Part shown: piece after piece, positions 4,054 through 46,335 of the stretch
Position numbering within the stretch: the stretch's first letter is position 1
How the letters are laid out: the number at the start of each line of letters is the position of its first letter
DNA from: Chloroflexota bacterium
GTDB taxonomy: Bacteria > Chloroflexota > Dehalococcoidia > Lucifugimonadales > UBA3495
Direction of reading: 5' to 3'
Assembly (NCBI GenBank): GCA_027623675.1
Contig: JAQBVF010000002.1
Location: 64,001 to 128,000, forward strand
DNA length: 64,000 nt
The notes under the pieces: model-generated
Seen by the model: only the letters and a program-made list of their open reading frames with translations
What the model was told of the DNA's origin: nothing
Database searches by the model: none
Made by a program: the position numbers and the translations under genes

Positions 4054-5097
4054 GTGAGCGAGATTCGACCTATAGAGTGGGCCAACGGCACACTCAGACT
4101 GCTTGACCAGACCCTGCTTCCATCTCAAGAAGTGATCGTGGAAGCTCATGGGTATCTGGAAGCCGTCGACGCCATCAAGACGATGCGCGTGCGGGGAGCT
4201 CCAGCTATCGGCGTCACCGCCGCTTACGCCGTCGCCATGGCCGCCAGAGAGCTGGATTCTCCCGACCGGGACCGATTCTTACAGCGGTTGGCAGAGGCCG
4301 GCGCCGTGATCAAGGCTGCCCGCCCCACCGCCGTTAACCTGATGTGGGCCGTGGACCGGATGGTTGCCCTGGCCAACACTCAAAGCGGTATAGCGGACAT
4401 CCGCGAACGCTTGATGTCGGAAGCCATCACGATCGAGAAAGAAGATGAAGCGATCAACCGCAAGATGGGCAGCCACGGCAAAGAACTGATGCCCGACGGC
4501 GGGTCGGTGCTGACACACTGCAACGCCGGCGCTCTGGCGACAGCCGCCTTTGGCACGGCGGTTGGGGTCATTCGGGCTGGCTGGGAAGACGGCAAGCGCT
4601 TCAAGGTGTTCAACACCGAGACCAGGCCGTTCCTGCAGGGCGCGCGGTTGACGGCTTGGGAGTTCAAGCAGCTTGGCATACCTTCCACCCTGATAGTGGA
4701 CTCCGCGGCCGGCATGCTCATGCGCCGGGGCGAGATCGGCTGCGTCATCACTGGGGCCGACCGCATCGCCGCCAACGGAGACACGGCAAACAAGATCGGC
4801 ACCTACACGCTGGCGGTGCTGGCCAAAGAGAATGGGATACCCTTCTACGTCGCCGCTCCCATCAGCACGGTGGACCTGAGCCTTAGCAACGGAGACGAGA
4901 TCGAGATAGAACAACGTTCCCAGACCGAGGTCACTGAATTCAGGGGAGTGCGTATCGCGCCCGACGGAGTAGAAGCCCTTAATCCTGGGTTCGACGTGAC
5001 ACCCGCCAGATACGTGAGCGCCATCATCACCGAAGCTGGGGTTGCCCGCCCGCCCTATACCGACAGCCTTGCCCTGGCGGCTAAGGCGGCCCGATGA
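4054..5097 (+). CDS. mtnA: S-methyl-5-thioribose-1-phosphate isomerase
   Basis: LLDQTLLP, MRVRGAPAIG, RPTAVNL, LTHCNAGALAT, ETRPFLQGARLTAWE, NKIGTY, NPGFDVTP. Confidence 0.96.
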   Translation: MSEIRPIEWANGTLRLLDQTLLPSQEVIVEAHGYLEAVDAIKTMRVRGAPAIGVTAAYAVAMAARELDSPDRDRFLQRLAEAGAVIKAARPTAVNLMWAVDRMVALANTQSGIADIRERLMSEAITIEKEDEAINRKMGSHGKELMPDGGSVLTHCNAGALATAAFGTAVGVIRAGWEDGKRFKVFNTETRPFLQGARLTAWEFKQLGIPSTLIVDSAAGMLMRRGEIGCVITGADRIAANGDTANKIGTYTLAVLAKENGIPFYVAAPISTVDLSLSNGDEIEIEQRSQTEVTEFRGVRIAPDGVEALNPGFDVTPARYVSAIITEAGVARPPYTDSLALAAKAAR

Positions 5098-32474: not shown

Positions 32475-32891
32475 CTAGTCCCGGGGCTTGATCGCTCCGT
32501 ACTTGCTGCGGCCTCGCCGGCGGTCCGGCACACCCTCACAGTCGAGAGCGCTGCGGACTACGTGGTAACGGACACCCGGCAGGTCTTTAACACGACCGCC
32601 TCGAATCAGCACCACCGAGTGTTCTTGGAGGTTATGGCCTTCACCGCCGATGTATGCGGTGACTTCCACTCCGTTGGTCAAGCGGATCCTGGCGATCTTC
32701 CGAAGAGCTGAGTTCGGCTTCTTCGGAGTCATGGTGCGCACCTGGATGCAGACACCCCGCCTCTGCGGGCAACCGGGACCCCATTTCACTCTATTCGTGA
32801 GGGAGTTCTGGACCCAGTGCATCGCCGGAGCCTTCGTCTTTTTGTGGACGGGCTTTCGGCCTTTTCTTACTAACTGATTTACTGTCGGCAT
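32475..32891 (-). CDS. rpsL: 30S ribosomal protein S12
   Basis: [35 protein letters not shown]; start set at ATG 32891. Confidence 0.97.
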
Positions 32892-33066
32892 GGCGTTCCC
32901 CTCGCCGCAATGGGCGCGATATATAACTCTATACAATCGACCGTGGCATTGTCAACAGATTTTACTCGTGATTCGCCTGTGCTTCAACTCCCACGTACTC
33001 GGGGGAATCCAGACGTTTCACCCGGCCAATAAGACTCCGTAGACCCTGGATCCAGCCGGAATCTTC

Positions 33067-33095
33067 TTGACAAGCTAAGCCCCCAATCATAAAGT
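33067..33095 (+). promoter_or_regulatory. Sigma70-type promoter for cbiE-cobN
   Basis: TTGACA-17 bp-TAAAGT. Confidence 0.6.
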
Positions 33096-33240
33096 AGCCC
33101 ATGACTCCAATCTGCCGATCTGAGCCCTCGGCGCCACGAATGCCGGAGGCTTTTTTAATACCCATGACTCACCACAGCGCCCCCAGGCATACGGCCTGTA
33201 GCTTCACTCCGTCCCGACCCGCCAACGCCGGCGCCGCCAT

Positions 33241-33933
33241 ATGACATCCCAAGATGGCGGCACACGGGTTACCATTATAGGCGTGGGTCCCGGCGACAAC
33301 GGATTCCTAACCCTGAAGGCAAAACAAGCGGTTGAGGAAGCCGACCTGGTGGCCGGTTTCGCGACGGTCTTGAACGTCGTCCGACCCTTCGTCAAGAATG
33401 CCGAACTCTGCCCCATGGCCTACCGCGACCAGGAAGAGGTTCTTGACTACGCCGTGGGAAAGGTGAAACAAGGCAAGAGCCTCGTCGTATGCGCCTGGGG
33501 AGACCTGAACGTGTCGGCCAAGGAGTTGCTAGACCGCGTGCGGCGGCGGGTGGACCACGTTGACCTGATCCCCGGCATCAGTTCGGTGCAGATCGCGCTG
33601 GTCCGTTCCGGCATATCCTTGGAGCATGCGGTCTTCGTCACGCTTCACGTTCGGGACGGCGCCGAATCGGCCTTGGAAGAATTGGTCCACTATATAAAGG
33701 AAGGCCGGCGGAACGTGGTCCTGCTGCCCCGACCCTACGACCTGATGCCGGCCGGTATCGCCGCTGGCGTTATCGAGGCTGGGATCTCCGGGGACCGCCA
33801 GATGACGGTCTTCCAACGCCTCACTCACGACGACGAGCAGTCTTGGAGCGGCAGCGTCAGCGAATGCGCCGCCATCACCTCCGATTTCAGCGATCTGTCG
33901 ATAATGGTTTTCCACAAGCCTGACTCGGACTAG
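33241..33933 (+). CDS. cbiE: Precorrin-6Y/cobalt-precorrin-7 C5-methyltransferase-like tetrapyrrole methylase
   Basis: IIGVGPGD, LTLKAKQAVEEADLVAG, GD motif, IPGISSVQ, TLH, QRLTHDDE; adjacent to cobN. Confidence 0.8.
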   Translation: MTSQDGGTRVTIIGVGPGDNGFLTLKAKQAVEEADLVAGFATVLNVVRPFVKNAELCPMAYRDQEEVLDYAVGKVKQGKSLVVCAWGDLNVSAKELLDRVRRRVDHVDLIPGISSVQIALVRSGISLEHAVFVTLHVRDGAESALEELVHYIKEGRRNVVLLPRPYDLMPAGIAAGVIEAGISGDRQMTVFQRLTHDDEQSWSGSVSECAAITSDFSDLSIMVFHKPDSD

Positions 33934-34088
33934 GCAGCATCAGGCACGGGCTTTCGCAAGCCCGATTCCGGTTAAAGTTAACCAGGCCTTCTAACCCACC
34001 GGTCCGCCCCCGCACGGGTTGGCGAGACCGGACAAGATATTTCACCGGCCTGCCTCGAAGGGGGAGGCTGGGAGGGACCGGTCCCAGT

Positions 34089-37000
34089 TTGATCCTTTTC
34101 GTCACCACTGCAGACACCGACCTGCTCACCGCTGGCCGGGCATTGGAGATTCTGCCGGCTGATTTTCCACAGGTAAAGGCGTTCAACCCGGCCACTCTGC
34201 CGGGGGAAGGCGAGCAAGACGCCATCCTGGCGGCCGCCGCGGAGGCCGACGTTGTTGTGCTGCGCCTGCTGGGCGGCAAACGGGCCATGCCCGAAAACTT
34301 CGACCCATTGGTCCGCCTCTGCCACGAGCGGGGCATTCCCCTCATCGCCTGTCCTGGCCATCAGGAATGGGACCAAGACCTGGTCACGGCCTGCACCGTT
34401 CCGCCCTCTGAGCTAGACGCCGTTTTCTCCTACCTGATTCGTGGCGGCGTGGCCAATTTCGAGAATCTTTTCCTCTTTTTAAGTGACTCCTACCTGGGCT
34501 CGGACTACGGCCACGAGGCCCCGGCGGAAGTCTCATGGGAAGGCATCTACCATCCCGACGAAGCCGACGGCATGTCAGCCCAGGATTTTGTGGTGCGCCG
34601 CTTCAAGCCCGGCCGGCCCAGCGTGGCGGTGCTGTTCTACCGCGCCCACTGGATGAGCGGCAACCTGCAGACGGTGGACGCACTGGTCCGGCGGCTTGAG
34701 GAACTGGAAACCAACGTGATGCCCGTCTATTCGTTCAGCCTGAAACACAATCCGGAGGGCGACGGGCAGGCCAACCGGACCTTCTCGGAGATCCTCTGCG
34801 ACGAGAATGGCGACGCCCGCGTCGACTGCATCATCAACACCATGGGCATGTCCATGACCGACCTGCACCAAGACGGCGCAACCTTCGCCGCCGGCCCCCA
34901 GGTCGACTATCTGGACAAGCTGAACGTCCCCATAATCCAGGGCATATTCAGCACCGGCAACGAGGCCGAATGGGAGGAGAGCTCCCTGGGTCTGGGCCCC
35001 ATAGACACCGCCATGAGTGTGGCCCTGCCCGAGTTCGACGGGCGGATCATCACCGTGCCAATCTCATTCAAAGAAGAGGTATCTTCGGAATCCGTTGGCC
35101 GCGATGGCAAGATGGACGCCCGGCTGCAGCGAAACCTGCCCCGGCCCGACCGCATCGACCTCCTGGCCCGGCTGTCCGCCAAATGGGCCTCGCTGCGGCT
35201 AAAGCCGAACGCTGACAAGCGCATCGCCATCATCCTCAGCAACTACCCGACCAAGGACGCCCGCGTCGGGAACGCGGTGGGACTGGACACCCCCGCTTCG
35301 GTCATCAACGTGCTAAACGCCATGGCCGCGGCCGGGTACACCGTGACCGACATCCCCGCCGACGGCGATGAACTGGTCCACCGGATAATCGAGCGGTGCA
35401 GCAACGACACCGACACGCTGACCGAAGAGCAACTCCGGCTGGCGGCGGGCCACGTTAGCTCCACCCAGTACAAAGAGTGGTTCCGCGGTTTCCCGCAAAC
35501 CGTCCAGAACGACATGGTTGAGGCCTGGGGCCAGCCGCCGGGGCAGGTATACCGCACCGGAGACAACCTGGCCATCGCCGGTATCGACTTGGGCAACGTG
35601 TTCGTCGGACTACAGCCGCCCCGAGGCTTCGGCGAGAACCCCATATCCGTGTACCACAGCCCGGACCTGGTCCCCACCCATCACTACATCGCCTATTACC
35701 GGTGGATGCGGGACGTTTTCAAAGCCGACGCGATGGTCCATGTGGGCAAGCACGGCACCCTGGAATGGCTGCCCGGAAAGGGGATCGGCCTGTCCGCTGC
35801 CTGCTACCCCGAGGTGGCCCTGGATGACGTGCCGCTGTTCTACCCGTTCATCATCAACAATCCCGGTGAGGGCGCCCAGGCCAAGCGGCGGGCCCACGCC
35901 ACCATCATCGACCACCTCATACCGGCCATGACCACCGCCGACAGTTACGGCGACATCGCCCGGCTGGAACAGTTGATGGACGAGCATTACCAGTGCCAGA
36001 CGTTGGACCCGGCCAAGCTGCCCTTGCTTGAGGGCCAGATCTGGGACATGGTGCGTCAGGCCGACCTGGACCGCGACCTGGGAGTGGACGAACATCCGGA
36101 GGACTTCGGCGACTTCATCTTGCACATCGACGGCTATCTCTGCGAACTGAAAGACGCCCAGATCAGGGACGGTCTCCACACCCTGGGCGAGGTGCCCCAA
36201 GACGAGCAGATGACCGGCCTGTTATCCTCCCTCACTCGCTTGGATACCGGAGGGATACCCAGCCTTAGACGCTCGCTGGCCGAGGCCATGGGCTTGGATT
36301 ACACCAGCCTGCTTGACGAACCGGCGCTGCCCGCCCCCGAGCCGGTCCCAGCGCCGCTGGCCGCCGGCGACGGCACGCCGGTCCGCACCCAAGGCGACCT
36401 GCTGGAAAGACTGGAAGAGCTGTCCCGCTCGGCTTACACCATGCTGGACGCCGGCGGGTTCAAAAGGCAGGACGTGGCCGGCATTGTCTTAAAGCTACTG
36501 GGAACCGAAGACGCCCAGTCCAGCCACGTGCTGAACTACGTGACCGACACCCTGCATCCGGCGCTGCTGCGGACCACCGACGAGATCGGCAATCTGCTGC
36601 GCGGCCTGGACGGTCAATTCGTCCCCGCCGGACCCAGCGGCGCACCGACCAGGGGCATGTCCAACATCCTGCCCACCGGCCGCAATTTCTATTCCGTCGA
36701 CCCCAAGACCATCCCATCGCCCACCGCCTGGGACATGGGCGTCGGCCTGGCCAACGCGCTGCTGCAGGTCTATCTGGAGGAAGAGGGCGGCTACCCCGAG
36801 ATGGTGGGGCTGGTCATCTGGGGCACGTCCGCCATGCGCACCCACGGCGACGACATCGCCCAGGTGTTCAGCCTTCTCGGCATCAAGCCGGTCTGGCAGG
36901 AAGAGAGCCGGCGCATCACCGGACTCGAGGTGATACCTCTGGCGGACCTGGGCCGTCCCCGGATCGACGTCACGGTTCGGATCAGCGGCTTCTTCCGGGA

Positions 37001-37913
37001 CGCCTTCCCCAACCTGATCGAGTTGATCGACCAGGCGGTGGAGCTGGTGGCCTCGTTGGACGAATCGCCGGAAGACAACATGGTGGTCAAACACCTGCGG
37101 GAGGACGCCGCCGCCAGGGAGTCCGGCGAGGAACAGTCGGCCGAGCCGACCGTGTCCCAGGGCAACCCCGCGCTGTACCGGATATTCGGCAGCAAGCCCG
37201 GCACCTATGGGGCCGGGATATTGGCCGCCATCGATGAACGCAACTGGGAGAGCGTTCAAGACCTGGCTGAGGTCTATACCGCCTGGGGCGGCTACGCCTA
37301 TACCCGCCAGGACTTCGGCGTTAACGCCCGGAACGAGTTCCGCCGCCGGTTCAGCCAGATCGTGGTTGCGGCCAAGAACCAGGACAACCGGGAGCACGAC
37401 ATCTTCGACAGCGACGACTACATGCAGTATCACGGCGGCATGATCGCCACCGTGAGGGCGCTGACCGGCAGCAACCCCCAGCAATTTTTCGGAGACAGTT
37501 CCGACCCCACCCGCGCCAGGGTTCGAAAGTTGGAGGAGGAAGCGCGCCGGGTCTTCCGCACCAGGGTGGTCAACCCCAAGTGGATCGACTCCATGAAGCG
37601 CCACGGCTACAAGGGCGCCTTCGAGCTGTCGGCCACCGTCGATTACATGTTCGGCTATGACGCCACTGCCCAGGTCATTGAGGACTGGATGTACGAGAAT
37701 GTCACCGAGTCCTACGTGCTGGACCCGGAGACCCAGGAGTTCTTCCAGCAGAGCAACCCCTGGGCGCTAAGAGACATTGTGGAGCGGCTGTTGGAGGCGA
37801 TAGAGCGCGGCATGTGGGAGAACCCGCCCGAGGACATGAAGGAAAAGCTTCAAAACATGTTCTTGGACCTGGAAGCCGATCTGGAAGCCCGCCAAGAGGG
37901 CCCGCAAAGCTAA
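34089..37913 (+). CDS. cobN: Cobaltochelatase large subunit
   Basis: 1274 aa; LPEFDGRI, NYPTKDARVGNAVGLDT, QPPRG, HVGKHGTLEWLPGK, GPSGAPTRG, LPTGRNFY, RPRIDVT, NQDNREHD, RVVNPKW. Confidence 0.95.
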   Translation: MILFVTTADTDLLTAGRALEILPADFPQVKAFNPATLPGEGEQDAILAAAAEADVVVLRLLGGKRAMPENFDPLVRLCHERGIPLIACPGHQEWDQDLVTACTVPPSELDAVFSYLIRGGVANFENLFLFLSDSYLGSDYGHEAPAEVSWEGIYHPDEADGMSAQDFVVRRFKPGRPSVAVLFYRAHWMSGNLQTVDALVRRLEELETNVMPVYSFSLKHNPEGDGQANRTFSEILCDENGDARVDCIINTMGMSMTDLHQDGATFAAGPQVDYLDKLNVPIIQGIFSTGNEAEWEESSLGLGPIDTAMSVALPEFDGRIITVPISFKEEVSSESVGRDGKMDARLQRNLPRPDRIDLLARLSAKWASLRLKPNADKRIAIILSNYPTKDARVGNAVGLDTPASVINVLNAMAAAGYTVTDIPADGDELVHRIIERCSNDTDTLTEEQLRLAAGHVSSTQYKEWFRGFPQTVQNDMVEAWGQPPGQVYRTGDNLAIAGIDLGNVFVGLQPPRGFGENPISVYHSPDLVPTHHYIAYYRWMRDVFKADAMVHVGKHGTLEWLPGKGIGLSAACYPEVALDDVPLFYPFIINNPGEGAQAKRRAHATIIDHLIPAMTTADSYGDIARLEQLMDEHYQCQTLDPAKLPLLEGQIWDMVRQADLDRDLGVDEHPEDFGDFILHIDGYLCELKDAQIRDGLHTLGEVPQDEQMTGLLSSLTRLDTGGIPSLRRSLAEAMGLDYTSLLDEPALPAPEPVPAPLAAGDGTPVRTQGDLLERLEELSRSAYTMLDAGGFKRQDVAGIVLKLLGTEDAQSSHVLNYVTDTLHPALLRTTDEIGNLLRGLDGQFVPAGPSGAPTRGMSNILPTGRNFYSVDPKTIPSPTAWDMGVGLANALLQVYLEEEGGYPEMVGLVIWGTSAMRTHGDDIAQVFSLLGIKPVWQEESRRITGLEVIPLADLGRPRIDVTVRISGFFRDAFPNLIELIDQAVELVASLDESPEDNMVVKHLREDAAARESGEEQSAEPTVSQGNPALYRIFGSKPGTYGAGILAAIDERNWESVQDLAEVYTAWGGYAYTRQDFGVNARNEFRRRFSQIVVAAKNQDNREHDIFDSDDYMQYHGGMIATVRALTGSNPQQFFGDSSDPTRARVRKLEEEARRVFRTRVVNPKWIDSMKRHGYKGAFELSATVDYMFGYDATAQVIEDWMYENVTESYVLDPETQEFFQQSNPWALRDIVERLLEAIERGMWENPPEDMKEKLQNMFLDLEADLEARQEGPQS

Positions 37914-37938
37914 ATCACAGATCTTCAGGAGGCCACCT

Positions 37939-38364
37939 GTGGAAATAACGATGGAACTACTCCGTGAACTGACCCAAGATGACAAGAAAACGTGGGTGAT
38001 CGGCGGCAGCAAGGTGTCCAGCGAGAATAGCTCCAAGGGCATCAAAGAGCCGGAGGTCTCGGGCAAATACGTCACGATCGAAGCGGACAATTGGCATTTT
38101 CACCTGGCCCTGGACGATGTTACCGGGATCCAGTTCGTCGATTCCGAGAGCCATGGGGACATGCACTCCTACTACGTCCGGTTTTCCGGCCCGGGATACG
38201 AGGACACGTTGGTCCGCAGCTATTTCCCCAATCCCAACCTGGACGACGACGAGAAGCGGACCGAGTTCCAGCCCGAAAAACTCAAGGCGTTCGAAGAGTT
38301 CCGGGACCGGTACGTGGGCCGCGAGGGCATCGTGTTCGTGACCAGGCCCCGGCAGGCCAGTTAG
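37939..38364 (+). CDS. HutX/ChuX (HemS-fold)-like putative tetrapyrrole-binding protein
   Basis: GTG after AGGAGG; pattern HFHL..DD.TGIQFV...SYYVRF...R.YF...Q...F..F resembles the ChuX/HutX split-barrel family (by eye). Confidence 0.6.
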   Translation: MEITMELLRELTQDDKKTWVIGGSKVSSENSSKGIKEPEVSGKYVTIEADNWHFHLALDDVTGIQFVDSESHGDMHSYYVRFSGPGYEDTLVRSYFPNPNLDDDEKRTEFQPEKLKAFEEFRDRYVGREGIVFVTRPRQAS

Positions 38365-38449
38365 CCGGCTTTCCCTATAATAATCTAAGATTTCCTGCGA
38401 TCTCGATCTTTCAGTTTTGATCCGGAACTGGGATTGGGCCGTATAGCTA

Positions 38450-38478
38450 TTGACCACGCTGTCCGCGAGGAATAACAT
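38450..38478 (+). promoter_or_regulatory. Promoter of B12-riboswitch unit 1
   Basis: TTGACC-17 bp-TAACAT, about 45 nt before the aptamer. Confidence 0.65.
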
Positions 38479-38524
38479 CAACTGGCTTACCACGAAGCCA
38501 AAGCGCTTAACAATCTAAAACATG

Positions 38525-38703
38525 TCCATAGGTGGTCCCGATTATTCGGGACTGAAAAGGGAAGCCGGTGAGATACCGGCGCGGTCGCGCCACTGTAACT
38601 GGTGTCAGCCACCCCACTAACGAATCGCCACTGACCCGATAACTCGGGATGGGAAGGCGGGGGTACTTGACCTAAGCCAGGAGCCAGGAGACCTGCCTAT
38701 GGA
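38525..38703 (+). promoter_or_regulatory. Cobalamin riboswitch 1
   Basis: AAAAGGGAAGCCGGTG..CCGGCGCGGTC.CGCCACTGTAA..GCCACTG..GGGAAGG..GAGCCAGGAGACCTGCC; P1 TCCATAGGTGG/CTGCCTATGGA. Confidence 0.95.
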
Positions 38704-38755
38704 TTGACTTGATGCACTTCGCAATTGAGGGTGTGAGTCTTACCGATTCTCTATG

Positions 38756-38784
38756 ACCTGACTTCCGAAGTCGGGTTTTTTTTT
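38756..38784 (+). terminator. Riboswitch 1 terminator
   Basis: ACCTGACTT-ccg-AAGTCGGGT followed by a long T-run. Confidence 0.85.
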
Positions 38785-38814
38785 GCTCAAGATCAAACGT
38801 CTGGAGATTTCAAC

Positions 38815-40398
38815 ATGCACTGGCGTTCAACGGCCTTTGGGTTCATCTTTGGCACTTTGCTCCTGGCTATCTTGGCGTGTGGCGGTCCTGCCAGCGCCAC
38901 GCCCACCGGTTCGGTTGTAGCCGAATCGAGCGGAGCGCCTACTGGTTCCGCAGAGCAACGCGTGTTGAAAGTAGCCCTGACTTTCCTGGACGAGCCGCCA
39001 GACCCTTATCAGACCGGTTGGCTGGCGGTCCCCACCGGTCTGGCCGAAACTTTGTTCCGATTGAGCGACGACCTTAAGCCGGAGCCTTGGCTGGCCACCG
39101 GCGCGGTACAGACCGCTCCGGAAACCTGGGAGATCACCCTGCGCGAGGGCGTCACCTTCCACAACGGCGTGTCGATGGACGCCGCCAAGGTCAAAGGCTC
39201 GCTGGACCTGGCGCTGCAACGGCGGCCCGGCACCAGGGTCCTTCTGGACATTGCCCGGACCGAGGTCAAAGACCCGTACACCGTGCTCATCACCACCAAC
39301 TCGCCCAACCCGACCCTGCCCGGCCTGTTGACCAACCAGAACACGAGCATCGCCGACCCCGGCACGGTGCCGGCATCGCCGGAAGATTCGGCGGAAAGCG
39401 CTGCGATGACCGGTCCCTACAAGCTGGTGTCCTTCAAAGCCGATCGGGAGATGATTGTCGAAGCGCACACCGGTTATTGGCAGGGCCGACCGGCGTTGGA
39501 CCGGATCGAATACGTTGCCTTTAACCAGAGCGACACCCGCCTCATCGCCCTCCAAAGCGGCGACGTCGACATATCGGTCAACCTCTCCCCACAGGGAGCG
39601 GTGACCGCCGAGAAAGATTCGTCACTGGAAGTTTTGATTGCTCCACCGTCGGGCATGCTGTTCATGTTTGTGAACCATGAAAGTCCGGCGATGCGGGACC
39701 CGCTGGTGCGCCGGGCCGTCGCCATGGCGGTGGACCGGAATGCCATGGCAACCGGCGTGGCGGACGGGCGCGCCGTCCCTGCGGAAAGCATGTTCCCGCC
39801 CGGGTTCATCTCCTGCCAGAATCCGGCTGGGTTTTCCTACAACCCGGAAGCGGCCCGTCAACTGCTTGCCGATGCCGGCTATCAGGATGAAAACGGCGAC
39901 GGCATCGTGGAAAAAGACGGGAAAGCCTTGGAGTTGGTCCTACAGACCTATCCCGAGCAGCCACTCTTGCCGCCGATGCTCGAAGCATACCAATCGATGT
40001 TGAAGGACATCGGCGTTGGCGCCAAGGTCCAAATCGTGGAATGGACCCTGGCCAGCCAGGGCGGTTACGACCTGTTCGGCTACAGCAACGGCACCATCAC
40101 CACGGGCGACCCCGGGTGGGCGCTCAACCGCCAGTTCCTGACCGGCGGCGACGAGAACCGGGGCAATTTCAGCAACGCCACGGTGGACGAACTCATCGGT
40201 AAGTTGTCCGGCGCGGCCGGTCCGGCCCAGCGGGAGCAGATCGCCTGCGAAGCCCTGAAAGCAGGGAATGATGAAGTTGCCCTGATACCGGTGATGTTCC
40301 CCAACCGGCTCTACGGGATATCGGACTCCGTCGATTGGCCGTCGGGTCCGCACGCCGTCCAACTCTACTTCATAGACTACAGAATCGGACTGAAATAG
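38815..40398 (+). CDS. ABC transporter substrate-binding lipoprotein, family 5 (NikA/CntA/DppA-like)
   Basis: Lipobox LAILAC; ETLFRL, PWLA, LREGVTFHNG, TGPYKL, ALQSGDVD, VRRAVAMAVDR, ARQLLADAGY. Confidence 0.88.
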   Translation: MHWRSTAFGFIFGTLLLAILACGGPASATPTGSVVAESSGAPTGSAEQRVLKVALTFLDEPPDPYQTGWLAVPTGLAETLFRLSDDLKPEPWLATGAVQTAPETWEITLREGVTFHNGVSMDAAKVKGSLDLALQRRPGTRVLLDIARTEVKDPYTVLITTNSPNPTLPGLLTNQNTSIADPGTVPASPEDSAESAAMTGPYKLVSFKADREMIVEAHTGYWQGRPALDRIEYVAFNQSDTRLIALQSGDVDISVNLSPQGAVTAEKDSSLEVLIAPPSGMLFMFVNHESPAMRDPLVRRAVAMAVDRNAMATGVADGRAVPAESMFPPGFISCQNPAGFSYNPEAARQLLADAGYQDENGDGIVEKDGKALELVLQTYPEQPLLPPMLEAYQSMLKDIGVGAKVQIVEWTLASQGGYDLFGYSNGTITTGDPGWALNRQFLTGGDENRGNFSNATVDELIGKLSGAAGPAQREQIACEALKAGNDEVALIPVMFPNRLYGISDSVDWPSGPHAVQLYFIDYRIGLK

Positions 40399-40399
40399 C

Positions 40400-41347
40400 T
40401 TGGGCAATCACCTAACGCGACGCCTGATAACACTTCCATTTCTCTTGGTGGGCATCTCAATCATCAGCTTTTTGCTGTTGAATTTCGCCCCCGGCGACGC
40501 CGCGGAGATCAGGCTGCTCCGTCAGAACGGGGGCGTAGCGCCTTCCGAGGAAGCGGTGATGGAATTGCGGCAAGAATTGGGTTTAAACGACGCCCTGCCG
40601 ATCCGCTATGCCAGATGGGTATCTTCCGCGGTGCGCGGCGACCTGGGTGAGTCCTACCGCACCGGTGCTTCGATCGCCTCCGAATTGACCCGGCGATTGC
40701 CAGCGACCCTCCTGCTTGCAGCCACCGCTTTAGCCTTGGCGGTGGCTGCAAGCATCCCCCTCGGCGTATTGGCGGCGGTGAGGCGGGGCTCTTGGGTGGA
40801 TACCATATGCCGCATACTCGCCCTCGTAGGGGCGGCAGTGCCCAGCTACGTGATGGCGCCGGCCTTGATGCTGCTATTCGCCGTGAAGTTGGACTGGCTG
40901 CCGGCCATCGGCTACGGGTCCTTCAGCGCCCTTGTGCTGCCGGCCCTGGCGCTGTCCTTCGGAACCATGGCCCAGTTGATGCGCCTGACGCGGGCCAGCG
41001 TGCTAGAGGTGCTGGACCAAGACTATATGCGGACGGCCCGCGCGAAAGGCCTGACCGAGACGGTGGTGGTTTGGCGTCACGGCTTGAAGAACGCCCTGCT
41101 GCCGGTGGTCACGGTCCTGGGGACCAATACGGGGTATCTTCTGGGCGGCGCCGTGATCATCGAGACCATCTTCGGCTGGCCGGGTGTCGGTCAGTTCGTC
41201 GTCACCGGAATCTCCCAACGGGACTACCCCGTGGTACAAGGGTTCGTGCTGTACATGGCTGTGATCTTCCTGCTGGTCAACCTGGCGGTAGATATCTCAT
41301 ACCGCTGGCTGGACCCGAGGCTTCATTTTGGCCGGCGGCATCACTAA
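40400..41347 (+). CDS. ABC transporter permease (NikB/DppB-like)
   Basis: GDLGESY, RLPATL, DYMRTARAKGL, ETIFGWPGVG, RDYPVVQG, LDPR; TTG start. Confidence 0.9.
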   Translation: MGNHLTRRLITLPFLLVGISIISFLLLNFAPGDAAEIRLLRQNGGVAPSEEAVMELRQELGLNDALPIRYARWVSSAVRGDLGESYRTGASIASELTRRLPATLLLAATALALAVAASIPLGVLAAVRRGSWVDTICRILALVGAAVPSYVMAPALMLLFAVKLDWLPAIGYGSFSALVLPALALSFGTMAQLMRLTRASVLEVLDQDYMRTARAKGLTETVVVWRHGLKNALLPVVTVLGTNTGYLLGGAVIIETIFGWPGVGQFVVTGISQRDYPVVQGFVLYMAVIFLLVNLAVDISYRWLDPRLHFGRRHH

Positions 41348-41348
41348 C

Positions 41349-42317
41349 ATGAAGACTGACGCTAAGCCTGTAAGAACGCCTCTTCGCCTTCGAGAACCGG
41401 CTCTTGCCCCAAGATTGCCCCGACCTGGAGACGTCACCATACAGAACACGATCCAACAACCGGTTTCCCAGCGACGGGCTTCACGAAAGACGGTGTTCCA
41501 TCACTTGCGCCACGACCCCGGAGCCGTTGCTGGTTTCGTGATCGTGGCCGCAGCTATCCTGGCGGCGCTGTTTGCCCCGTTGCTCCCCCTGCCAAGCCCG
41601 GTGGAAGTGGACCTGCAGAACCGGTTGCTTTCTCCCTCCGGCGCTTTCCCGTTGGGCACCGACCACCTGGGCCGGGATGAGTTGAGCCGCCTGGTCTTTG
41701 GCGCACGGACCACGTTGATGATGTCCGGCGCATCGTTGGCCATCATCATGGTCATCGCAACCGTGGTCGGTTCCCTGGCCGGCTACTACGGCGGCTGGCT
41801 CGACACCGGCTTGATGATGCTGGTGGACCTGCTGCTGGCATTTCCGGCGCTGATCCTGGGGGTGGCCGTGGCCGGTATCTTGGGGCCAAGCCTGGTCAAC
41901 GTGATGATTGCCGTCTCAGTGGTCTGGTGGGCCAGCCACGCCCGAGTCATCCGCGCCATGGTCTTGTCGGCAAGGCACCGGGAATATGTTGTGGCCGCCA
42001 GGGCTATCGGGGCTAGCGACGGCCGAATCATCGTCTTCCACATCGCCCGTAACATCATGGGGCCGTTCGTCGTATTGGCGACGCTGGACATCGGCTGGAT
42101 AATCTTGGGGATAGCCGGTTTGAGTTTCCTGGGACTGGGCGCCCAGCCGCCCACGCCCGAATGGGGGGCCATGCTCAACGACTCGCGCTCGTACATGCAG
42201 ACCGCGCCATCGTTGTTGCTCGCCCCCGGAATCGCGATCTTTCTATTGGTGCTGGGCTTCAATCTTTTGGGCGACGGGCTGCGCGACATGCTTGACCCGA
42301 CGACCTACCGGCTTTAG
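41349..42317 (+). CDS. ABC transporter permease (NikC/DppC-like)
   Basis: LGTDHLGRD, EYVVAARAIGAS, LSFLGLGAQPPTPEWG, FNLLGDGLRD; ATG 41349 chosen as start. Confidence 0.9.
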   Translation: MKTDAKPVRTPLRLREPALAPRLPRPGDVTIQNTIQQPVSQRRASRKTVFHHLRHDPGAVAGFVIVAAAILAALFAPLLPLPSPVEVDLQNRLLSPSGAFPLGTDHLGRDELSRLVFGARTTLMMSGASLAIIMVIATVVGSLAGYYGGWLDTGLMMLVDLLLAFPALILGVAVAGILGPSLVNVMIAVSVVWWASHARVIRAMVLSARHREYVVAARAIGASDGRIIVFHIARNIMGPFVVLATLDIGWIILGIAGLSFLGLGAQPPTPEWGAMLNDSRSYMQTAPSLLLAPGIAIFLLVLGFNLLGDGLRDMLDPTTYRL

Positions 42318-42375
42318 AGGACATAGCCGCGCCGGAGGGACGATAGATTCGGCCTGGCGTGCCGGGAATCACCTA

Positions 42376-42404
42376 TTGACCCTATCGGTCAAAAAGGCTA
42401 TTAT
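42376..42404 (+). promoter_or_regulatory. Promoter of B12-riboswitch unit 2
   Basis: TTGACC-17 bp-TATTAT; the -35 is one arm of TTGACC-N5-GGTCAA. Confidence 0.65.
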
Positions 42405-42455
42405 TCTGCTCGAAGAGCAACCGAAAGATTGTCTCTTCGTTTAACAACTTAGACG

Positions 42456-42640
42456 AGCTGCTTGGTGGTCCCGTTCATTCGGGACTGAAAAGGGAAGCCG
42501 GTGCGAGTCCGGCGCGGTCCCGCCACTGTAACTGGTAACCCCCTCTCCCACCGGGAGTGGAGTCACTGTTCCGAGTAATTGGAACGGGAAGGCGAAGGGG
42601 GGGGTAGAAAAGCCAGGAGCCAGGAGACCTGCCACCAGCT
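42456..42640 (+). promoter_or_regulatory. Cobalamin riboswitch 2
   Basis: AAAAGGGAAGCCGGTGCGAGTCCGGCGCGGTCCCGCCACTGTAA..GTCACTG..GGGAAGG..GAGCCAGGAGACCTGCC. Confidence 0.95.
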
Positions 42641-42690
42641 TGACTTGGAAGCCTTCGTGGATTGGGGGTATGAGTCAGTATGACGATTCC

Positions 42691-42718
42691 GCCCGACTCC
42701 GCCAGTCGGGCATTTTTT
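42691..42718 (+). terminator. Riboswitch 2 terminator
   Basis: GCCCGACT-ccgcc-AGTCGGGC followed by ATTTTTT. Confidence 0.8.
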
Positions 42719-42903
42719 ATGCCCTGACCGGATGGTGGTTGGGCAAAGAACAGAAAATTGAATAGCTAGGTTGTTCGTGGCTTTAGCCTGCTCGGCTATA
42801 ATCCTGGTGGAAAACTGAGTTGACCGGAGCGGCGGGTCCTTTATCCAGCCGCGGAAAAAGTCAGACATAAATTCGAGACATAGAGAAATCTGAGGGGGAA
42901 ATC

Positions 42904-43101
42904 ATGGTACAGGTGTTTCGGCAGTCCATAGCAAACAGAGAGTCTTCCCGATGGCTTCCCGCGGTGTTGGCGGCAACCGTCGCCTTGTATTTCATCGGCT
43001 ACGTCGACGGCACGGCCCAGGGAGCGTTCTTGGGCGGCAACATGGCGGTTGTCCATGAGGTCTTCCACCACGCCCGCCACGTTGCCTTCATGTGCCACTA
43101 G
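42904..43101 (+). CDS. cbtB: Cobalt transporter subunit CbtB
   Basis: One TM helix then HEVFHHARHVAFMCH (CbtB H..H..RH....CH terminus); behind a B12 riboswitch. Confidence 0.88.
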   Translation: MVQVFRQSIANRESSRWLPAVLAATVALYFIGYVDGTAQGAFLGGNMAVVHEVFHHARHVAFMCH

Positions 43102-43393
43102 GCTAGGAGCCCGCTCCTAGCAGGCAACTCTAAGACCCGGCTTAAGAGAAAAATACCGCAGTCTCCGCTACGGAGACTGCGGTTCTAATCAACCCGCCTC
43201 CTCCCCAGCCCCGCGCTTCAACTTAGCCGTTTCTCACCCGGCGCTGTATGGCCTCGCACTGCAGTTTCGCGTATCTCATCGCCCCCAAAACGATGTCCCG
43301 CCGCGGCTTCGCGATCCACGGACAGGGCTTCTAAACAGATTTTCTCCAAACGGACTTTCATGGACTTTCAACGCATGTCAGGGAGGGGCAATC

Positions 43394-44164
43394 ATGCCTA
43401 GAATATTGATCATTGGGCTGGTGGCGGGCCTATTCGCCGGCCTGCTGGTGGGCGGGTTTCACAACCTGTTCACCGTGCCCGTCATCGAACGGGCCATAGA
43501 TTTCGAAGAAGCACAGTCTGCATCGGCGAATCCCAATGCCCCGGAAGAAGACCCGCTGGTCTCCCTGGGGGCGCAACGGTGGGGAATGGCGGCCGGGACC
43601 GGCATCTACGGCGCCATCCTTGGCGTGGTCTTCGCCGCCGCCGTCACCGTACTCCGCAAGGTAGTCCCAGATTGGAAGCCCTTGGCCATCGCCGTCACCG
43701 CGGCCGCCTTGGGATTCTGGGCCTTGTCTTTGTTCCCGTTCATCCGGTACCCGCTGAATCCGCCCGGTGTGGGCGAGTCCGACACCCTCACCTACCGGCA
43801 GGGTCTGCAGACCATGTTCATGATTCTGTCGGTACTAGGCGTCGGGGTATTGCTGTTTGGCCTGCGTGAGATCAACGGTCGGTTCCAAGAAACTAGCAAG
43901 CGGGTCAAAATGTACGGCGCTGCCGGGCTGGCCTACGTTGTCTTCGCGGTAATCATGTACTTCGCCCACCCGGCCAATCCAGACCCGGTGGAGATGCCCA
44001 TCGACCTCCTGGAACTGTTCCGCACGCTGACGATGGTCGGGCAATTCCTGACCTGGGCCATGATGGCCGGACTGGCAACCGCCGGCATGTATTGGTATCA
44101 ACGCCGCGATGCGAAGGCGGGCAACCGCTTCGATCCGGTGACCGGAGCGCCCGTAAGCCTGTGA
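43394..44164 (+). CDS. cbtA: Cobalt transporter subunit CbtA
   Basis: GLVAGLFAG, PVIERAIDFEE, PFIRYPLNPPGVG...TLTYRQ, P.DLL..FR; multiple TM helices. Confidence 0.88.
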   Translation: MPRILIIGLVAGLFAGLLVGGFHNLFTVPVIERAIDFEEAQSASANPNAPEEDPLVSLGAQRWGMAAGTGIYGAILGVVFAAAVTVLRKVVPDWKPLAIAVTAAALGFWALSLFPFIRYPLNPPGVGESDTLTYRQGLQTMFMILSVLGVGVLLFGLREINGRFQETSKRVKMYGAAGLAYVVFAVIMYFAHPANPDPVEMPIDLLELFRTLTMVGQFLTWAMMAGLATAGMYWYQRRDAKAGNRFDPVTGAPVSL

Positions 44165-46335
44165 CCAGATCAAGCACGACAACCACCAGTGAGAACCCCG
44201 GAAATAAAAATCCCGGCAATAAAAACCCCGGCAATAAAAACCCCGGCGGAAACGCCGGCAGAATCCCAGAGTCCCGGTTTCCGTTCACGGCCATCGTAGG
44301 TCAAACGGCCATGAAACGAGCGCTGCTCCTGAACGCCGTCAACCCGAAGATCGGCGGCGTTCTGGTGCGCGGCAAGAAGGGCACCGCCAAGTCCACGGCG
44401 GTCCGTTCTCTGGCTGCGCTATTGCCCGAGGTAACCGTGGTCCAGGGCTGCCCCTACAACTGCAGTCCGGAAGAACGCCAGGGGCTGTGCAACCGCTGTG
44501 AGCCGATCGACACCGACGCCGCAACCGTCGTTCGCCAGATCCCGATCGTGGACCTGCCGGTTGGCGCGACGGAGGACAGGCTGGTGGGGTCTCTGGACAT
44601 CGAGGAGGCCATCAAAACGGGAAACCGGGTCTTTGAGCCGGGCCTCATCGCAGCGACGCACCGGGGCATTCTCTACATCGACGAAGTTAACCTGCTCAAC
44701 GACCACCTGGTGGACATTCTGCTGGACGCCGCCGCCATGGGCCGCAACTATGTGGAGCGGGAGGGTATCTCGGTGACCCATCGTTCGGAGTTTATCCTGG
44801 TGGGCACGATGAACCCGGAAGAAGGCGACCTCCGGCCCCAACTGCTGGACCGCTTCGGACTGGCGGTTGAAGTCGACGGGCGGTTCTCCCCCGAGGAACG
44901 CCAAGAGGTGGTGAAGCGCCGCATCGCCTACGAGGCCGACCCCCAGGCGTTCATGGCCCGGTGGCAGCAGCCGGAGCAGGAGGAACGGCAGCGGGTGCTG
45001 CGGAGCCAGCAGTTGCTGCCCCAGGTGGTTGTCAGCGATGACATCTTGTCCCTGATCACATCCATCTGCGCCGAATACGATATCGACGGCATGCGCGGCG
45101 ATATCGTCATGTACAAGACAGCCAGCACCATCGCCGCCTACGAGCAGCGGACGGAAGTCAACGCCGAGGACGTGCGCGAGGCCGCCAACCTGGCCCTGCT
45201 TCACCGCCAGCGCCGGCAGCCCTTCCAGCAGCCCAATCTGGAGACCAGCCAGCTCGACTCAATGGTGGACGACTTTCAGAGTCAGGACCGCCAACGCGAA
45301 TCGCAAGACCAGGCCGGGGATAACGATCAAGGAGAGGGCGATTCCGAGCCCTCGGATTTAAGACCGGAAGATTTAGAGTCACCGGACCCCGAATCACCTG
45401 AGCCCCAGGACCCCGACGCCGAACCGGACAATCCGGGATTCGGGCTGCCCCAGAATGAGCAGTTCGAAGTGGGCGACCCCTATGCGGTGCGGTCTCTCGA
45501 CCTGAAGCCTCCAGACCAACGCTCCCGCCGCGCCTCGGGCCGCCGTAACGTCACCATCAGCGACTCCTCCGCCGGGCGGTACGTCCGCTCCCGCCAACCG
45601 GAGGGCAAGGCGACCGGGCTGGCCTTGGACGCCACCCTGCGCGCCGCCGCACCGCACCAACTGGGCCGCCGGTCATCGTCCCAATCAGCCAACGCCGTGC
45701 TGGTCGAGCCCCAGGATATCCGCGATAAGGTCAGGGAGAACAAGGCGGGCAGCCTGGTGCTGTTCGTGGTTGATGCCAGCGGCTCCATGGGCGCTCAGCG
45801 GCGCATGGTGGCGGTCAAGGGGGCGATCATGTCCCTCTTGCTGGACGCCTACCAGCGGCGCGACCGGGTGGGACTGATCTCATTTCGCGGGACACAGTCC
45901 AGTCTGCTGCTGCCGCCCACCAACAGCGTCGACCTGGCCCAGGTCCACCTGAAAGACATGCCCACGGGAGGCCGAACTCCGCTCAGCGCCGGTCTGTTCA
46001 AAGCGTTGGAGATCGTCGAGACGGAACGCATCAAGGACCGGGACGTCATGCCCCTGCTGGTGCTGCTGTCCGATGGCCGGGGCAACGTGGCCCAAGGCCA
46101 AGACTCGCCCTTGGACGAAGCGTCGGTGGCGGCTGGGATCATCGGCGAGGGCAAGATCCCGTCGGTGGTGGTGGACACCGAGTCCGGGTTCATCAAGCTG
46201 GGCATGATACAGCCGATAGCCACGGCCATGGGCGCCCAATACCTGAAGCTGGAAGACCTGAGGGCCGACAACCTGGCGGAGGCGGTGCGGCTCAACATGC
46301 CCATTATCGGCGAGGCCCCGCCCCACGTTAACTAG
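44161..46335 (+). CDS. Fused ChlI/ChlD-type (AAA+ plus vWA) chelatase subunit, likely CobN partner
   Basis: GTG overlaps the cbtA stop (GTGA); FPFTAIVGQ, GKKGTAKST, TEDRLVGSLD, YIDEVNLL, GTMNPEEG, LLDRFG; acidic/Pro linker; vWA MIDAS DASGSM, TGGRTPL, LSDGRGN. Confidence 0.92.
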   Translation: MTRSSTTTTSENPGNKNPGNKNPGNKNPGGNAGRIPESRFPFTAIVGQTAMKRALLLNAVNPKIGGVLVRGKKGTAKSTAVRSLAALLPEVTVVQGCPYNCSPEERQGLCNRCEPIDTDAATVVRQIPIVDLPVGATEDRLVGSLDIEEAIKTGNRVFEPGLIAATHRGILYIDEVNLLNDHLVDILLDAAAMGRNYVEREGISVTHRSEFILVGTMNPEEGDLRPQLLDRFGLAVEVDGRFSPEERQEVVKRRIAYEADPQAFMARWQQPEQEERQRVLRSQQLLPQVVVSDDILSLITSICAEYDIDGMRGDIVMYKTASTIAAYEQRTEVNAEDVREAANLALLHRQRRQPFQQPNLETSQLDSMVDDFQSQDRQRESQDQAGDNDQGEGDSEPSDLRPEDLESPDPESPEPQDPDAEPDNPGFGLPQNEQFEVGDPYAVRSLDLKPPDQRSRRASGRRNVTISDSSAGRYVRSRQPEGKATGLALDATLRAAAPHQLGRRSSSQSANAVLVEPQDIRDKVRENKAGSLVLFVVDASGSMGAQRRMVAVKGAIMSLLLDAYQRRDRVGLISFRGTQSSLLLPPTNSVDLAQVHLKDMPTGGRTPLSAGLFKALEIVETERIKDRDVMPLLVLLSDGRGNVAQGQDSPLDEASVAAGIIGEGKIPSVVVDTESGFIKLGMIQPIATAMGAQYLKLEDLRADNLAEAVRLNMPIIGEAPPHVN
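44194..44253 (+). repeat. 15-bp tandem repeat encoding (NPGNK)n
   Basis: AACCCCGGAAATAAA AATCCCGGCAATAAA AACCCCGGCAATAAA AACCCCGGCGGAAAC. Confidence 0.9.

What the first reader, a model, noticed from the sequence alone, without database searches (positions are those of the whole stretch)
37939..38364. HutX/ChuX-like heme-carrier fold directly behind cobN: candidate corrin chaperone
Seen: a 141-aa ORF 25 nt after the cobN stop with a strong SD and a His-containing core (WHFHL, SHGDMHS). By eye it follows the ChuX/HutX pattern. Known: HutX/ChuX are cytoplasmic heme carriers of heme-uptake operons, and GUN4 is the porphyrin-binding helper of Mg-chelatase. Inference: a GUN4-analogous substrate or product carrier for cobaltochelatase; I know of no such described partner.
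Basis: partly seen in the sequence, partly recalled or inferred. Interest (0 to 1): 0.7.

Follow-up and report, generated by a model that had tools for sequence, protein, structure and literature searches.

The report
ChuX-fold protein inside cobaltochelatase operon
A small gene just behind the cobalt-chelatase gene cobN encodes a protein with the fold of bacterial heme carriers, which may handle the vitamin B12 precursor for the chelatase, although close relatives of it also live in genomes that have no chelatase at all.

Summary
Window 37939-38364(+) is a real 141-aa gene with a GTG start, 25 nt after the cobN stop and 6 nt after an AGGAGG. A confident model (pLDDT 94.3) has the HemS/ChuX fold: Z 15.2 to 3na2, 12.3 to ChuX, 10.9 to HutX. 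It is not a member of Pfam ChuX_HutX. It belongs to an uncharacterised sister family (DUF7676 / LFE_1968-like).

The interpretation, a GUN4-like corrin carrier for CobN, is only partly supported.

For it:
- In the 80 most similar loci the gene follows cobN in 75, and cobalt-uptake or chelatase genes follow it in 63.
- A B12 riboswitch lies upstream of cbiE, the first gene of the array, in 9 of 11 relatives.

Against it:
- All these loci form one clade, so the linkage arose once.
- In a sample of 201 genomes of the order, 50 carry the family and only 18 of those have CobN. Only 8 have the two genes adjacent.
- Twenty unlinked copies (38-56% identical) sit in unrelated neighbourhoods.
- Five of five such genomes lack CbiC.
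- The same 24 residues, including E29, H53, H55, H72, R81 and R93, are conserved at 90% or more in linked and unlinked copies alike.

Best reading (0.4): a tetrapyrrole-binding carrier, probably for a corrinoid, recruited into the cobN operon in one SAR202 lineage. It is not an obligatory CobN partner.

The parts
33241..33933 (+). cbiE-type precorrin methyltransferase, first gene of the unit
   Evidence: Pfam TP_methylase 5e-28; TIGR02467 CbiE 123 bits against a cut-off of 92.9. It lies upstream of cobN in most related loci.
34089..37913 (+). cobN, large subunit of the class I cobaltochelatase (1274 aa)
   Evidence: PF02514 1406 bits; TIGR02257 1276 bits against a cut-off of 822.
37927..37932 (+). 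Shine-Dalgarno AGGAGG, 6 nt before the GTG start
   Evidence: Read directly from the sequence.
37939..38364 (+). The finding: a 141-aa HemS/ChuX-fold protein of the DUF7676 / LFE_1968-like family
   Evidence: Residues conserved at 90% or more in both groups include E29, W52, H53, H55, Q65, H72, Y79, R81 and R93, and the YFPNP loop at 95-99.
38513..38714 (+). Cobalamin riboswitch ahead of the nikABC-like genes; it marks the end of the cbiE-cobN-ORF141 unit in this window
   Evidence: RF00174, 114.7 bits.
38815..42317 (+). nikA/nikB/nikC-like ABC importer (binding protein and two permeases), probably for cobalt; no ATPase gene in the locus
   Evidence: SBP_bac_5 and BPD_transp_1; NCBIfam nickel/cobalt ABC models.
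42445..42650 (+). Second cobalamin riboswitch, ahead of cbtB-cbtA-chlID
   Evidence: RF00174, 118.7 bits.
42904..43101 (+). cbtB-like small ORF (65 aa, His-rich C-terminus)
   Evidence: ORF list. No Pfam hit. It is conserved after the ORF141 homolog in 52 of 80 related loci. The name rests on position and on a recalled motif.
43394..44164 (+). cbtA, probable cobalt transporter subunit
   Evidence: PF09490 CbtA 1.3e-43.
44092..46335 (+). Fused ChlI/ChlD-like AAA+ and VWA motor subunit of the chelatase; the true start is probably later than 44092
   Evidence: Mg_chelatase, AAA_5, AAA_lid_2 and VWA domains.

Best explanation
ORF141 is a small cytoplasmic ligand-binding protein of the HemS/ChuX superfamily, from an uncharacterised sister family of ChuX/HutX. 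It most likely binds a tetrapyrrole on the face of its curved beta-sheet. By strand register, the conserved residues H53, H55, Q65, Y79 and R81 lie side by side there; the positions of E29, H72 and R93 relative to this patch could not be fixed without coordinates (all inferred, not shown). In the lineage of this window the gene was captured once into the cbiE-cobN-ORF141-(cbtB-cbtA-chlID) operon. There it most likely holds or hands over a corrinoid substrate or product of the CobN/ChlID cobaltochelatase, much as ChuX/HutX pass heme or anaerobilin between enzymes. It is not an obligatory CobN subunit: the same protein, with the same conserved site, works in relatives that have neither CobN nor corrin-ring synthesis. 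Shown: the gene is real, it has this fold, it has this operon position, and the family is distributed this way. Inferred: the ligand, the binding face and the hand-over to CobN.
For: Fold: pLDDT 94.3; Z 15.2 to 3na2, 12.3 to ChuX, 10.9 to HutX and 8.6-9.3 to HemS/ChuS/PhuS; profile E 1.5e-10 to 3fm2, deposited as a distant HemS relative. The HutX alignment places an H-x-H at the position of H53/H55. Operon: of the 80 most similar loci (of 151 confirmed), cobN ends <=700 nt upstream in 75 (two of these are cobN remnants only), 723-2246 nt upstream in 4, and is not seen in 1. In the 75 the gap is mostly around 40-150 nt. Downstream on the same strand come cbtB in 52, nikA-like in 9 and chlID in 2 of the 80. 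A cobalamin riboswitch precedes cbiE in 9 of 11 sampled relatives, which puts the gene inside a B12-controlled operon there. One genome, G570, has both a cobN-linked and an unlinked copy, consistent with specialisation. Two-domain relatives of about 300 aa (P0130, P0154, P0165) resemble the doubled HemS/ChuS architecture. Precedent from passages read: HutX transports heme to HutZ and HutW (PMC12670364), and ChuX shuttles anaerobilin from ChuW to ChuY (PMC13227078).
Against: The linkage has a single origin: all linked copies form one clade (SH-aLRT 99, quick tree only), so the 75 loci count as roughly one event plus retention. The 80 loci were chosen by similarity to the query, which biases the count. 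In the unbiased order sample, 50 of 201 genomes have the family, 23 of 201 have CobN, 18 have both and only 8 have them adjacent. In eight cobN loci of other lineages, cobN is followed directly by chlID or cbtB with no homolog between. Twenty unlinked copies have no cobN, cbiE, cbt or chlID within 7 kb, and their neighbours are unrelated to tetrapyrroles. None of the 20 has a B12 riboswitch in front of it. Five of five unlinked-copy genomes lack CbiC, while G000 is positive. The conserved site is the same in linked and unlinked copies, so the ligand need not be a CobN substrate. The family does not reach Pfam ChuX_HutX. The genome also holds CbiX, CbiD, CbiG and CbiC, so what CobN itself acts on here is unclear.
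Confidence: 0.4

Rival explanations
1. It is a generic cytoplasmic heme-binding, heme-trafficking or heme-degrading protein, as in the rest of the HemS/ChuX superfamily. Its place behind cobN in one lineage is a hitch-hiking accident kept by inheritance.
For: Every characterised structural neighbour is a heme protein. JGI names some homologs 'putative heme iron utilization protein'. The family occurs in 32 genomes of the order sample that gave no CobN match and in five of five tested genomes without CbiC. The conserved site is the same in linked and unlinked copies.
Against: No heme-uptake or heme-degradation gene lies beside it in the window or in the 20 unlinked loci. In 63 of 80 loci it is flanked on both sides by chelatase or cobalt-uptake genes. 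In 9 of 11 relatives the operon is B12-riboswitch controlled. The gene has been kept there while CobN diverged to about 70% identity.
Confidence: 0.2
2. It is a metal-binding protein. The invariant E29, H53, H55 and H72 form a mononuclear site, and in this operon it passes Co(II) from the CbtAB or Nik-like importer to CobN, standing in for CobW.
For: An H-x-H on one strand, a third His in the next hairpin and an invariant Glu on another strand are conserved in all 104 copies compared. The gene lies between cobN and cbtB/cbtA in 52 of 80 loci. CobW-type metallochaperones are usually encoded beside cobN (PMC7689651, passages). The best cobW-family match in this genome is a 222-aa frame on another contig, shorter than a typical CobW as I recall it.
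Against: I know of no member of this fold that binds a bare metal (recall). The fold's cleft binds tetrapyrroles in all characterised relatives. Two invariant Arg and one Tyr fit propionate and axial ligation better than metal binding. Whether the four residues are close in space could not be checked, because no coordinates were available. Unlinked copies persist in genomes without CobN.
Confidence: 0.15
3. It is an enzyme or a sensor rather than a carrier. It could modify a tetrapyrrole or another small molecule at the conserved polar site, or sense an end product and tune the chelatase.
For: 24 of 141 positions are conserved at 90% or more in both groups down to 38% identity, which is unusually many polar positions for a simple carrier. 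HemS/ChuS/PhuS relatives break down heme (PMC12670364 and PMC13227078, passages). In this window cbiE-cobN-ORF141 has no riboswitch of its own, which leaves room for control at the protein level.
Against: No cofactor-binding or catalytic motif was recognised. No conserved partner gene appears in the unlinked loci. This reading is purely inferential.
Confidence: 0.15

Closest known systems
ChuX (E. coli O157:H7) and HutX (Vibrio cholerae), cytoplasmic heme and anaerobilin carriers (PDB 2ovi, 6u9j, 5exv)
   Same: Same fold: Z 12.3 and 10.9 with 116-117 aligned residues. Weak profile relation: E 0.018 to 5exv, with an H-x-H aligned to H53/H55. Also a small soluble protein encoded beside a tetrapyrrole-processing enzyme.
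   Different: No match to Pfam ChuX_HutX. 12-18% identity. It lacks about 43 N-terminal residues of ChuX (model 1-126 aligns to ChuX 44-161). It is not in a heme-utilisation operon. It has its own conserved YFPNP loop and E/H/H/H/R/R set.
3na2 (Leptospirillum, LFE_1968-like) and 3fm2 (Anabaena Ava_4353), structural-genomics proteins of unknown function
   Same: The closest solved relatives: Z 15.2 and 12.1, profile E 7.9e-10 and 1.5e-10. Same size class. W-H-x-H is kept in 3na2, and H55, Y79 and R81 are kept in 3fm2.
   Different: 16-20% identity. H72, R93 and the YFPNP loop are not kept. Their function and gene context are unknown to me. The one text search for these names listed no relevant paper.
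GUN4, porphyrin-binding activator of Mg-chelatase ChlHID
   Different: Unrelated fold and family: no GUN4 Pfam hit. No evidence here of binding to CobN or of rate enhancement. It is not co-distributed with CobN beyond one clade.
CobW, the Co(II) metallochaperone of CobNST
   Same: An accessory protein usually encoded next to cobN (PMC7689651).
   Different: CobW is a G3E GTPase with a CxCC site. ORF141 has no P-loop or cobW domain and has a tetrapyrrole-carrier fold.
HmuS of Bacteroidota, a CobN-family protein acting on heme
   Same: It shows that CobN-family proteins can work with heme, so a heme-type carrier beside a CobN homolog is not absurd (PMC13227078, passages).
   Different: HmuS is membrane-anchored, forms a separate clade and sits in hmu operons. 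The CobN here passes the cobaltochelatase equivalog model and lies among B12-riboswitch-controlled cobalt genes.

Membership tests
HemS/ChuX structural superfamily | Curved antiparallel beta-sheet with flanking helices, superposable on ChuX, HutX and the HemS half-domains | tested here: met
   Z 12.3 (2ovi), 10.9 (5exv) and 8.6-9.3 (HemS/ChuS/PhuS), well above the next unrelated rows at Z about 5-6. Foldseek probability 1.00.
HemS/ChuX structural superfamily | Detectable sequence-profile relation to members | tested here: met
   The family profile hits 3fm2 at 1.5e-10, 3na2 at 7.9e-10, 2hqv at 0.016 and 5exv at 0.018. The last two are weak.
Pfam ChuX_HutX (PF06228) | Match to the family HMM at or above its gathering score | tested here: not met
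   No PF06228 hit even at E<=10.
ChuX/HutX heme carriers | Encoded in a heme uptake or utilisation operon (chu, hut) | tested here: not met
   The neighbours are cbiE, cobN, nikABC-like, cbtBA and chlID. None of the 20 unlinked loci shows heme genes.
ChuX/HutX heme carriers | 1:1 binding of heme | not testable with these tools
   Needs purified protein and UV-visible titration.
Pfam DUF7676 (PF24724) | Match at or above the gathering score (27 bits) | tested here: met
   33.7 bits, E 3e-08, but the best stretch covers only residues 39-65 against profile positions 61-87 of 166. It is an outlying member.
Pfam LFE_1968-like (PF22684) | Match at or above the gathering score (27 bits) | tested here: not met
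   15.9 bits, E 0.017. Precomputed annotation lists PF22684 on the homologs, and 3na2 is the best structural match.
GUN4-type chelatase helper | GUN4 porphyrin-binding domain | tested here: not met
   No such Pfam hit. The fold is HemS/ChuX.
GUN4-type chelatase helper | Binds the large chelatase subunit and raises its activity | not testable with these tools
   Needs pull-down and a chelatase assay.
GUN4-type chelatase helper | Co-distributed with its chelatase | tested here: not met
   Order sample: 18 genomes with both, 5 with CobN only and 32 with the family only. Phylum sample: CobN family in 75 of 401, this family in 3 of 401.
CobW (COG0523) cobalt chaperone | G3E GTPase domain | tested here: not met
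   No PF02492 hit in ORF141.

The most novel reading that the evidence does not exclude
In this SAR202 lineage the protein is a dedicated corrinoid-binding accessory factor of the CobN/ChlID cobaltochelatase. It would be the first tetrapyrrole-handling partner described for a class I cobaltochelatase, a functional analogue of GUN4 built on the ChuX/HutX fold. Because the genome also carries the early-insertion set (CbiX, CbiD, CbiG, CbiC), it might feed CobN a metal-free or salvaged corrinoid rather than the classical aerobic intermediate.
Probability: 0.25. Interest if true: 0.75.

Novelty: new variant of a known kind. Interest (0 to 1): 0.45.

Why it matters
Class I cobaltochelatases have one known helper, the metal chaperone CobW. 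In the texts I searched and read, no protein is described that handles their corrin substrate (searches; passages). A ChuX-fold protein fixed between cobN and the cobalt-uptake and motor genes, in a B12-riboswitch-controlled operon, is a concrete candidate that can be tested at the bench. It also bears on an open question: what CobN does in organisms that already have the early cobalt-insertion route. The survey also carries a caution. The synteny looked overwhelming (75 of 80) only because the loci were chosen by similarity. In an unbiased sample the family is mostly unlinked to cobN.

Tried and rejected
- Complex prediction of CobN residues 420-1274 with ORF141, each given as an alignment. 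Verdict: no answer, score 0.00. CobN had to be truncated to fit the size limit. This is not evidence either way.
- RNA runs. No RNA holder was listed.
- Metagenome context of distant relatives. The single protein P0173 found no confirmed relative. The context of the out-group relatives stays unknown.
- Earlier findings of this scan by place and by sequence: nothing.
- Literature. 'DUF7676' gave 0 papers. 'cobN + SAR202 + cobalamin' gave 0 papers. 3FM2/3NA2/Ava_4353/LFE_1968 gave only chemistry papers among the 10 listed. The ChuX structure paper PMC2762594 is not held, so the heme-ligand residues of ChuX and HutX could not be checked. That ChuX His98 and His65 are the proposed ligands is recall only.
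- Rosetta-stone search among longer proteins. The one hit, P0184 (403 aa), is an internally deleted CobN remnant joined in frame to a homolog. I read it as decay of cobN, not as a functional fusion.
- Pfam families in 14 control genomes. DUF7676 and LFE_1968-like rang in none.
- The careful tree search did not finish in 300 s, so only the quick tree is reported.
- The spatial closeness of the conserved residues could not be computed, because model coordinates are not exposed. The surface patch is inferred from strand register only.

Full report
**Observation.** The ORF at 37939-38364(+) exists as described. It has a GTG start, encodes 141 codons and begins 25 nt after the cobN stop at 37913. 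AGGAGG lies 6 nt upstream. The upstream gene is a cobaltochelatase CobN: PF02514 at 1406 bits, TIGR02257 at 1276 bits against a cut-off of 822.

The ORF is a real gene:
- 464 clusters at 90% identity match it.
- Homologs start at the position of the GTG.
- dN/dS is 0.08-0.22 against three relatives.
- AlphaFold2, given a 30-row alignment, yields mean pLDDT 94.3 and pTM 0.89.

**Fold.**
- Foldseek ranks 3na2, 3fm2, 2hqv, ChuX and HutX first, followed by PhuS, ChuS and HemS.
- VIA-align gives Z 15.2 (3na2), 12.3 (ChuX 2ovi), 12.1 (3fm2), 11.9 (2hqv), 10.9 (HutX) and 8.6-9.3 (HemS/ChuS/PhuS). Unrelated rows follow at about 5-6.
- A profile of the family reaches 3fm2 at 1.5e-10, 3na2 at 7.9e-10, 2hqv at 0.016 and HutX at 0.018. 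In the HutX alignment an H-x-H sits at the place of H53/H55.
- Pfam gives DUF7676 above its cut-off (33.7 against 27 bits), but over 27 residues only. LFE_1968-like falls below its cut-off. ChuX_HutX gives nothing.

The protein is not a ChuX/HutX family member. It belongs to an uncharacterised sister family, and it lacks about 43 N-terminal residues of ChuX.

**Surroundings in the window.** The gene order is:
- cbiE (33241-33933), cobN, ORF141
- a cobalamin riboswitch (38513-38714)
- a nikA/B/C-like importer (38815-42317)
- a second cobalamin riboswitch (42445-42650)
- cbtB-like ORF, cbtA, and a fused ChlI/ChlD-like motor subunit

No riboswitch precedes cbiE here. Elsewhere, on contig C47, the genome carries CbiC, CbiX, CbiD and CbiG. 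CobG stays below its cut-off. The organism therefore has the early cobalt-insertion set as well as CobN/ChlID.

**Evidence for a link to cobN.** A scan of one genome per species found 151 stretches encoding relatives, and the best 80 were kept. All are Dehalococcoidia/Chloroflexota MAGs at 60-94% identity.
- Upstream on the same strand, cobN ends within 700 nt in 75 of the 80 loci, two of which hold only a cobN remnant. It ends 723-2246 nt away in 4 and is not seen in 1.
- Downstream on the same strand come cbtB in 52 of the 80, nikA-like in 9 and chlID in 2.
- In 9 of 11 sampled loci a cobalamin riboswitch lies just upstream of cbiE. In most of those, none lies after the ORF141 homolog. There the gene sits in the interior of a B12-controlled cbiE-cobN-ORF141-cbtB-cbtA-chlID operon.

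**Evidence against a general link.** Those 80 loci were selected by similarity to the query, so the count is biased.
- In an evenly drawn sample of 201 genomes of the same order, 50 carry the family and 23 carry CobN. Eighteen carry both, 5 carry CobN only and 32 carry the family only. The two genes are adjacent in only 8 genomes: the six same-family genomes, G000 and G570.
- I fetched 20 unlinked copies, 38-56% identical to ORF141. None has cobN, cbiE, cbtA/B or chlID within 7 kb.
- Their neighbours differ from family to family: Rieske oxygenase with SDR, aconitase with a CAP-domain protein, phage portal with GAPDH, MFS with CoA-transferase, and glycosyltransferases.
- None has a cobalamin riboswitch in front of it. 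One, L091, lies 1.3 kb from a riboswitch-controlled BtuF/BtuC-like importer.
- In eight cobN loci of other lineages, cobN is followed directly by chlID or cbtB with no homolog between. This includes G548, whose CobN is 73% identical to the window's and whose family copy lies 350 kb away.
- Five of five near-complete genomes with unlinked copies lack CbiC, while the window's genome is positive.
- In a sample of 401 genomes of the phylum, 75 have a CobN-family protein and 3 have this family. The count of 75 includes BchH/ChlH-type proteins and one genome flagged unpublished, G038.

**Phylogeny.**
- A quick maximum-likelihood tree of 121 rows puts all cobN-linked copies in one clade with SH-aLRT 99. 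The clade has 83 rows, including two representatives of unknown context. The 23 unlinked copies fall outside it in several groups. The careful search did not finish.
- The linkage therefore looks like one capture event followed by retention, while CobN diverged to about 70% identity.
- Within that clade, three related genomes (L033, L048, L051) have lost the adjacent cobN. Two keep a short remnant, and all three have a full cobN elsewhere.
- Their ORF is intact. Pairwise dN/dS within this trio is 0.30-0.41, against 0.05-0.22 elsewhere, but it rests on few changes.
- A single 403-aa protein joins an internally deleted CobN remnant to a homolog.

**The conserved site.**
- Across 81 linked and 23 unlinked copies, 24 positions are conserved at 90% or more in both groups: L7, L11, V20, E29, W52, H53, H55, Q65, F66, V67, H72, G73, Y79, R81, S83, T90, R93, Y95, F96, P97, N98, P99, D102, Q111, P112, F118, R122 and V134 less the four that miss the mark are listed. 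H76 of 'SHGDMHS' is not conserved.
- By strand register in the model, H53/H55 on strand 5, Q65/V67 on strand 6 and Y79/R81 on strand 7 face the same side of the sheet. This is an inference.
- His, Tyr and two Arg suit axial ligation and propionate binding of a tetrapyrrole. A Glu with three His could also hold a metal ion.
- Because the site is the same in copies with and without cobN, the ligand is probably something every member of the order has. A corrinoid (made or salvaged) or heme would fit.

**Most likely mechanism.** I favour, at 0.4, a tetrapyrrole-binding carrier, most likely for a corrinoid. It was recruited into the cobN operon in this lineage and buffers or passes on the chelatase's substrate or product. 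The analogy is to HutX and ChuX, which pass heme or anaerobilin between enzymes (PMC12670364 and PMC13227078, passages).

The rivals are:
- a generic heme protein that hitch-hikes behind cobN (0.2)
- a Co(II)-binding chaperone that uses the E/H/H/H set (0.15)
- an enzyme or sensor (0.15)

**Comparison with what is known.** The known CobNST helper is CobW, a GTPase metallochaperone usually encoded beside cobN (PMC7689651, passages; bioRxiv 10.64898/2026.10.09.757910, passages). GUN4 is the porphyrin-binding activator of ChlHID, and bacteriochlorophyll chelatases have no analogue of it (PMC7242693, passages). None of the passages I read describes a tetrapyrrole-binding partner of CobN, and the searches found none. 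From memory, CobE has been proposed to carry hydrogenobyrinic acid. I could not confirm this in the held texts: the term is absent from PMC7689651 and PMC7242693.

**Verdict.**
- The finding is a new variant of a known kind: a ChuX-fold protein of an uncharacterised family, fixed in a cobaltochelatase operon in one SAR202 lineage.
- It is worth a bench test. The genomic evidence does not support a general or obligatory partnership with CobN.

Noticed in passing
own genome G000, contig C47:1935-8026, and window 34089-46335: The genome carries the early cobalt-insertion set (CbiC, a two-domain CbiX, CbiD, CbiG) as well as CobN with a fused ChlID. CobG stays below its cut-off. What CobN acts on in such an organism is unclear.
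   Followed up: partly
window 38815-42317: The B12-riboswitch-controlled nikA/B/C-like importer has a binding protein and two permeases, but no ATPase genes follow. The next feature is the second riboswitch.
   Followed up: no
window 32800-34200; L014, L015, L022, L035, L036, L042, L044, L058, L073 at about 730-1270: Nine of 11 relatives have a cobalamin riboswitch upstream of cbiE. The window has none there, even at E<=1, and instead has two riboswitches downstream of ORF141. The control of the operon has been rearranged.
   Followed up: partly
L048:5720-5950, L051:5803-6000; G596:C1:2761493-2761747: Short C-terminal cobN remnants lie directly before intact ORF141 homologs, while a full-length cobN lies elsewhere in the same genomes. 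The cobN at this locus has been lost or replaced.
   Followed up: partly
P0184 (403 aa, one contig): An internally deleted CobN fragment is joined in frame to an ORF141 homolog. It is probably a decaying cobN read through into the next gene.
   Followed up: partly
P0130, P0154, P0165 (294-310 aa): These are tandem two-domain relatives of the family, recalling the doubled architecture of HemS/ChuS/PhuS. Their gene context is unknown.
   Followed up: no
G404:C1:6967-7568: cobN is reduced to two short fragments with an internal TGA in a genome that keeps an intact unlinked family copy (L104).
   Followed up: no
window 44092-44164: The listed chlID ORF (TTG at 44092) overlaps the end of cbtA by 73 nt. 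The true start is probably further downstream.
   Followed up: no
window 3783-3916: A SAM riboswitch (RF00162, 70.9 bits) lies ahead of the ORF at 4054-5097.
   Followed up: no
L101, L102, L104 (family f87) and L093: Unlinked family copies lie within a few kb of a phage portal protein gene, possibly at the edge of a prophage or a remnant of one.
   Followed up: no
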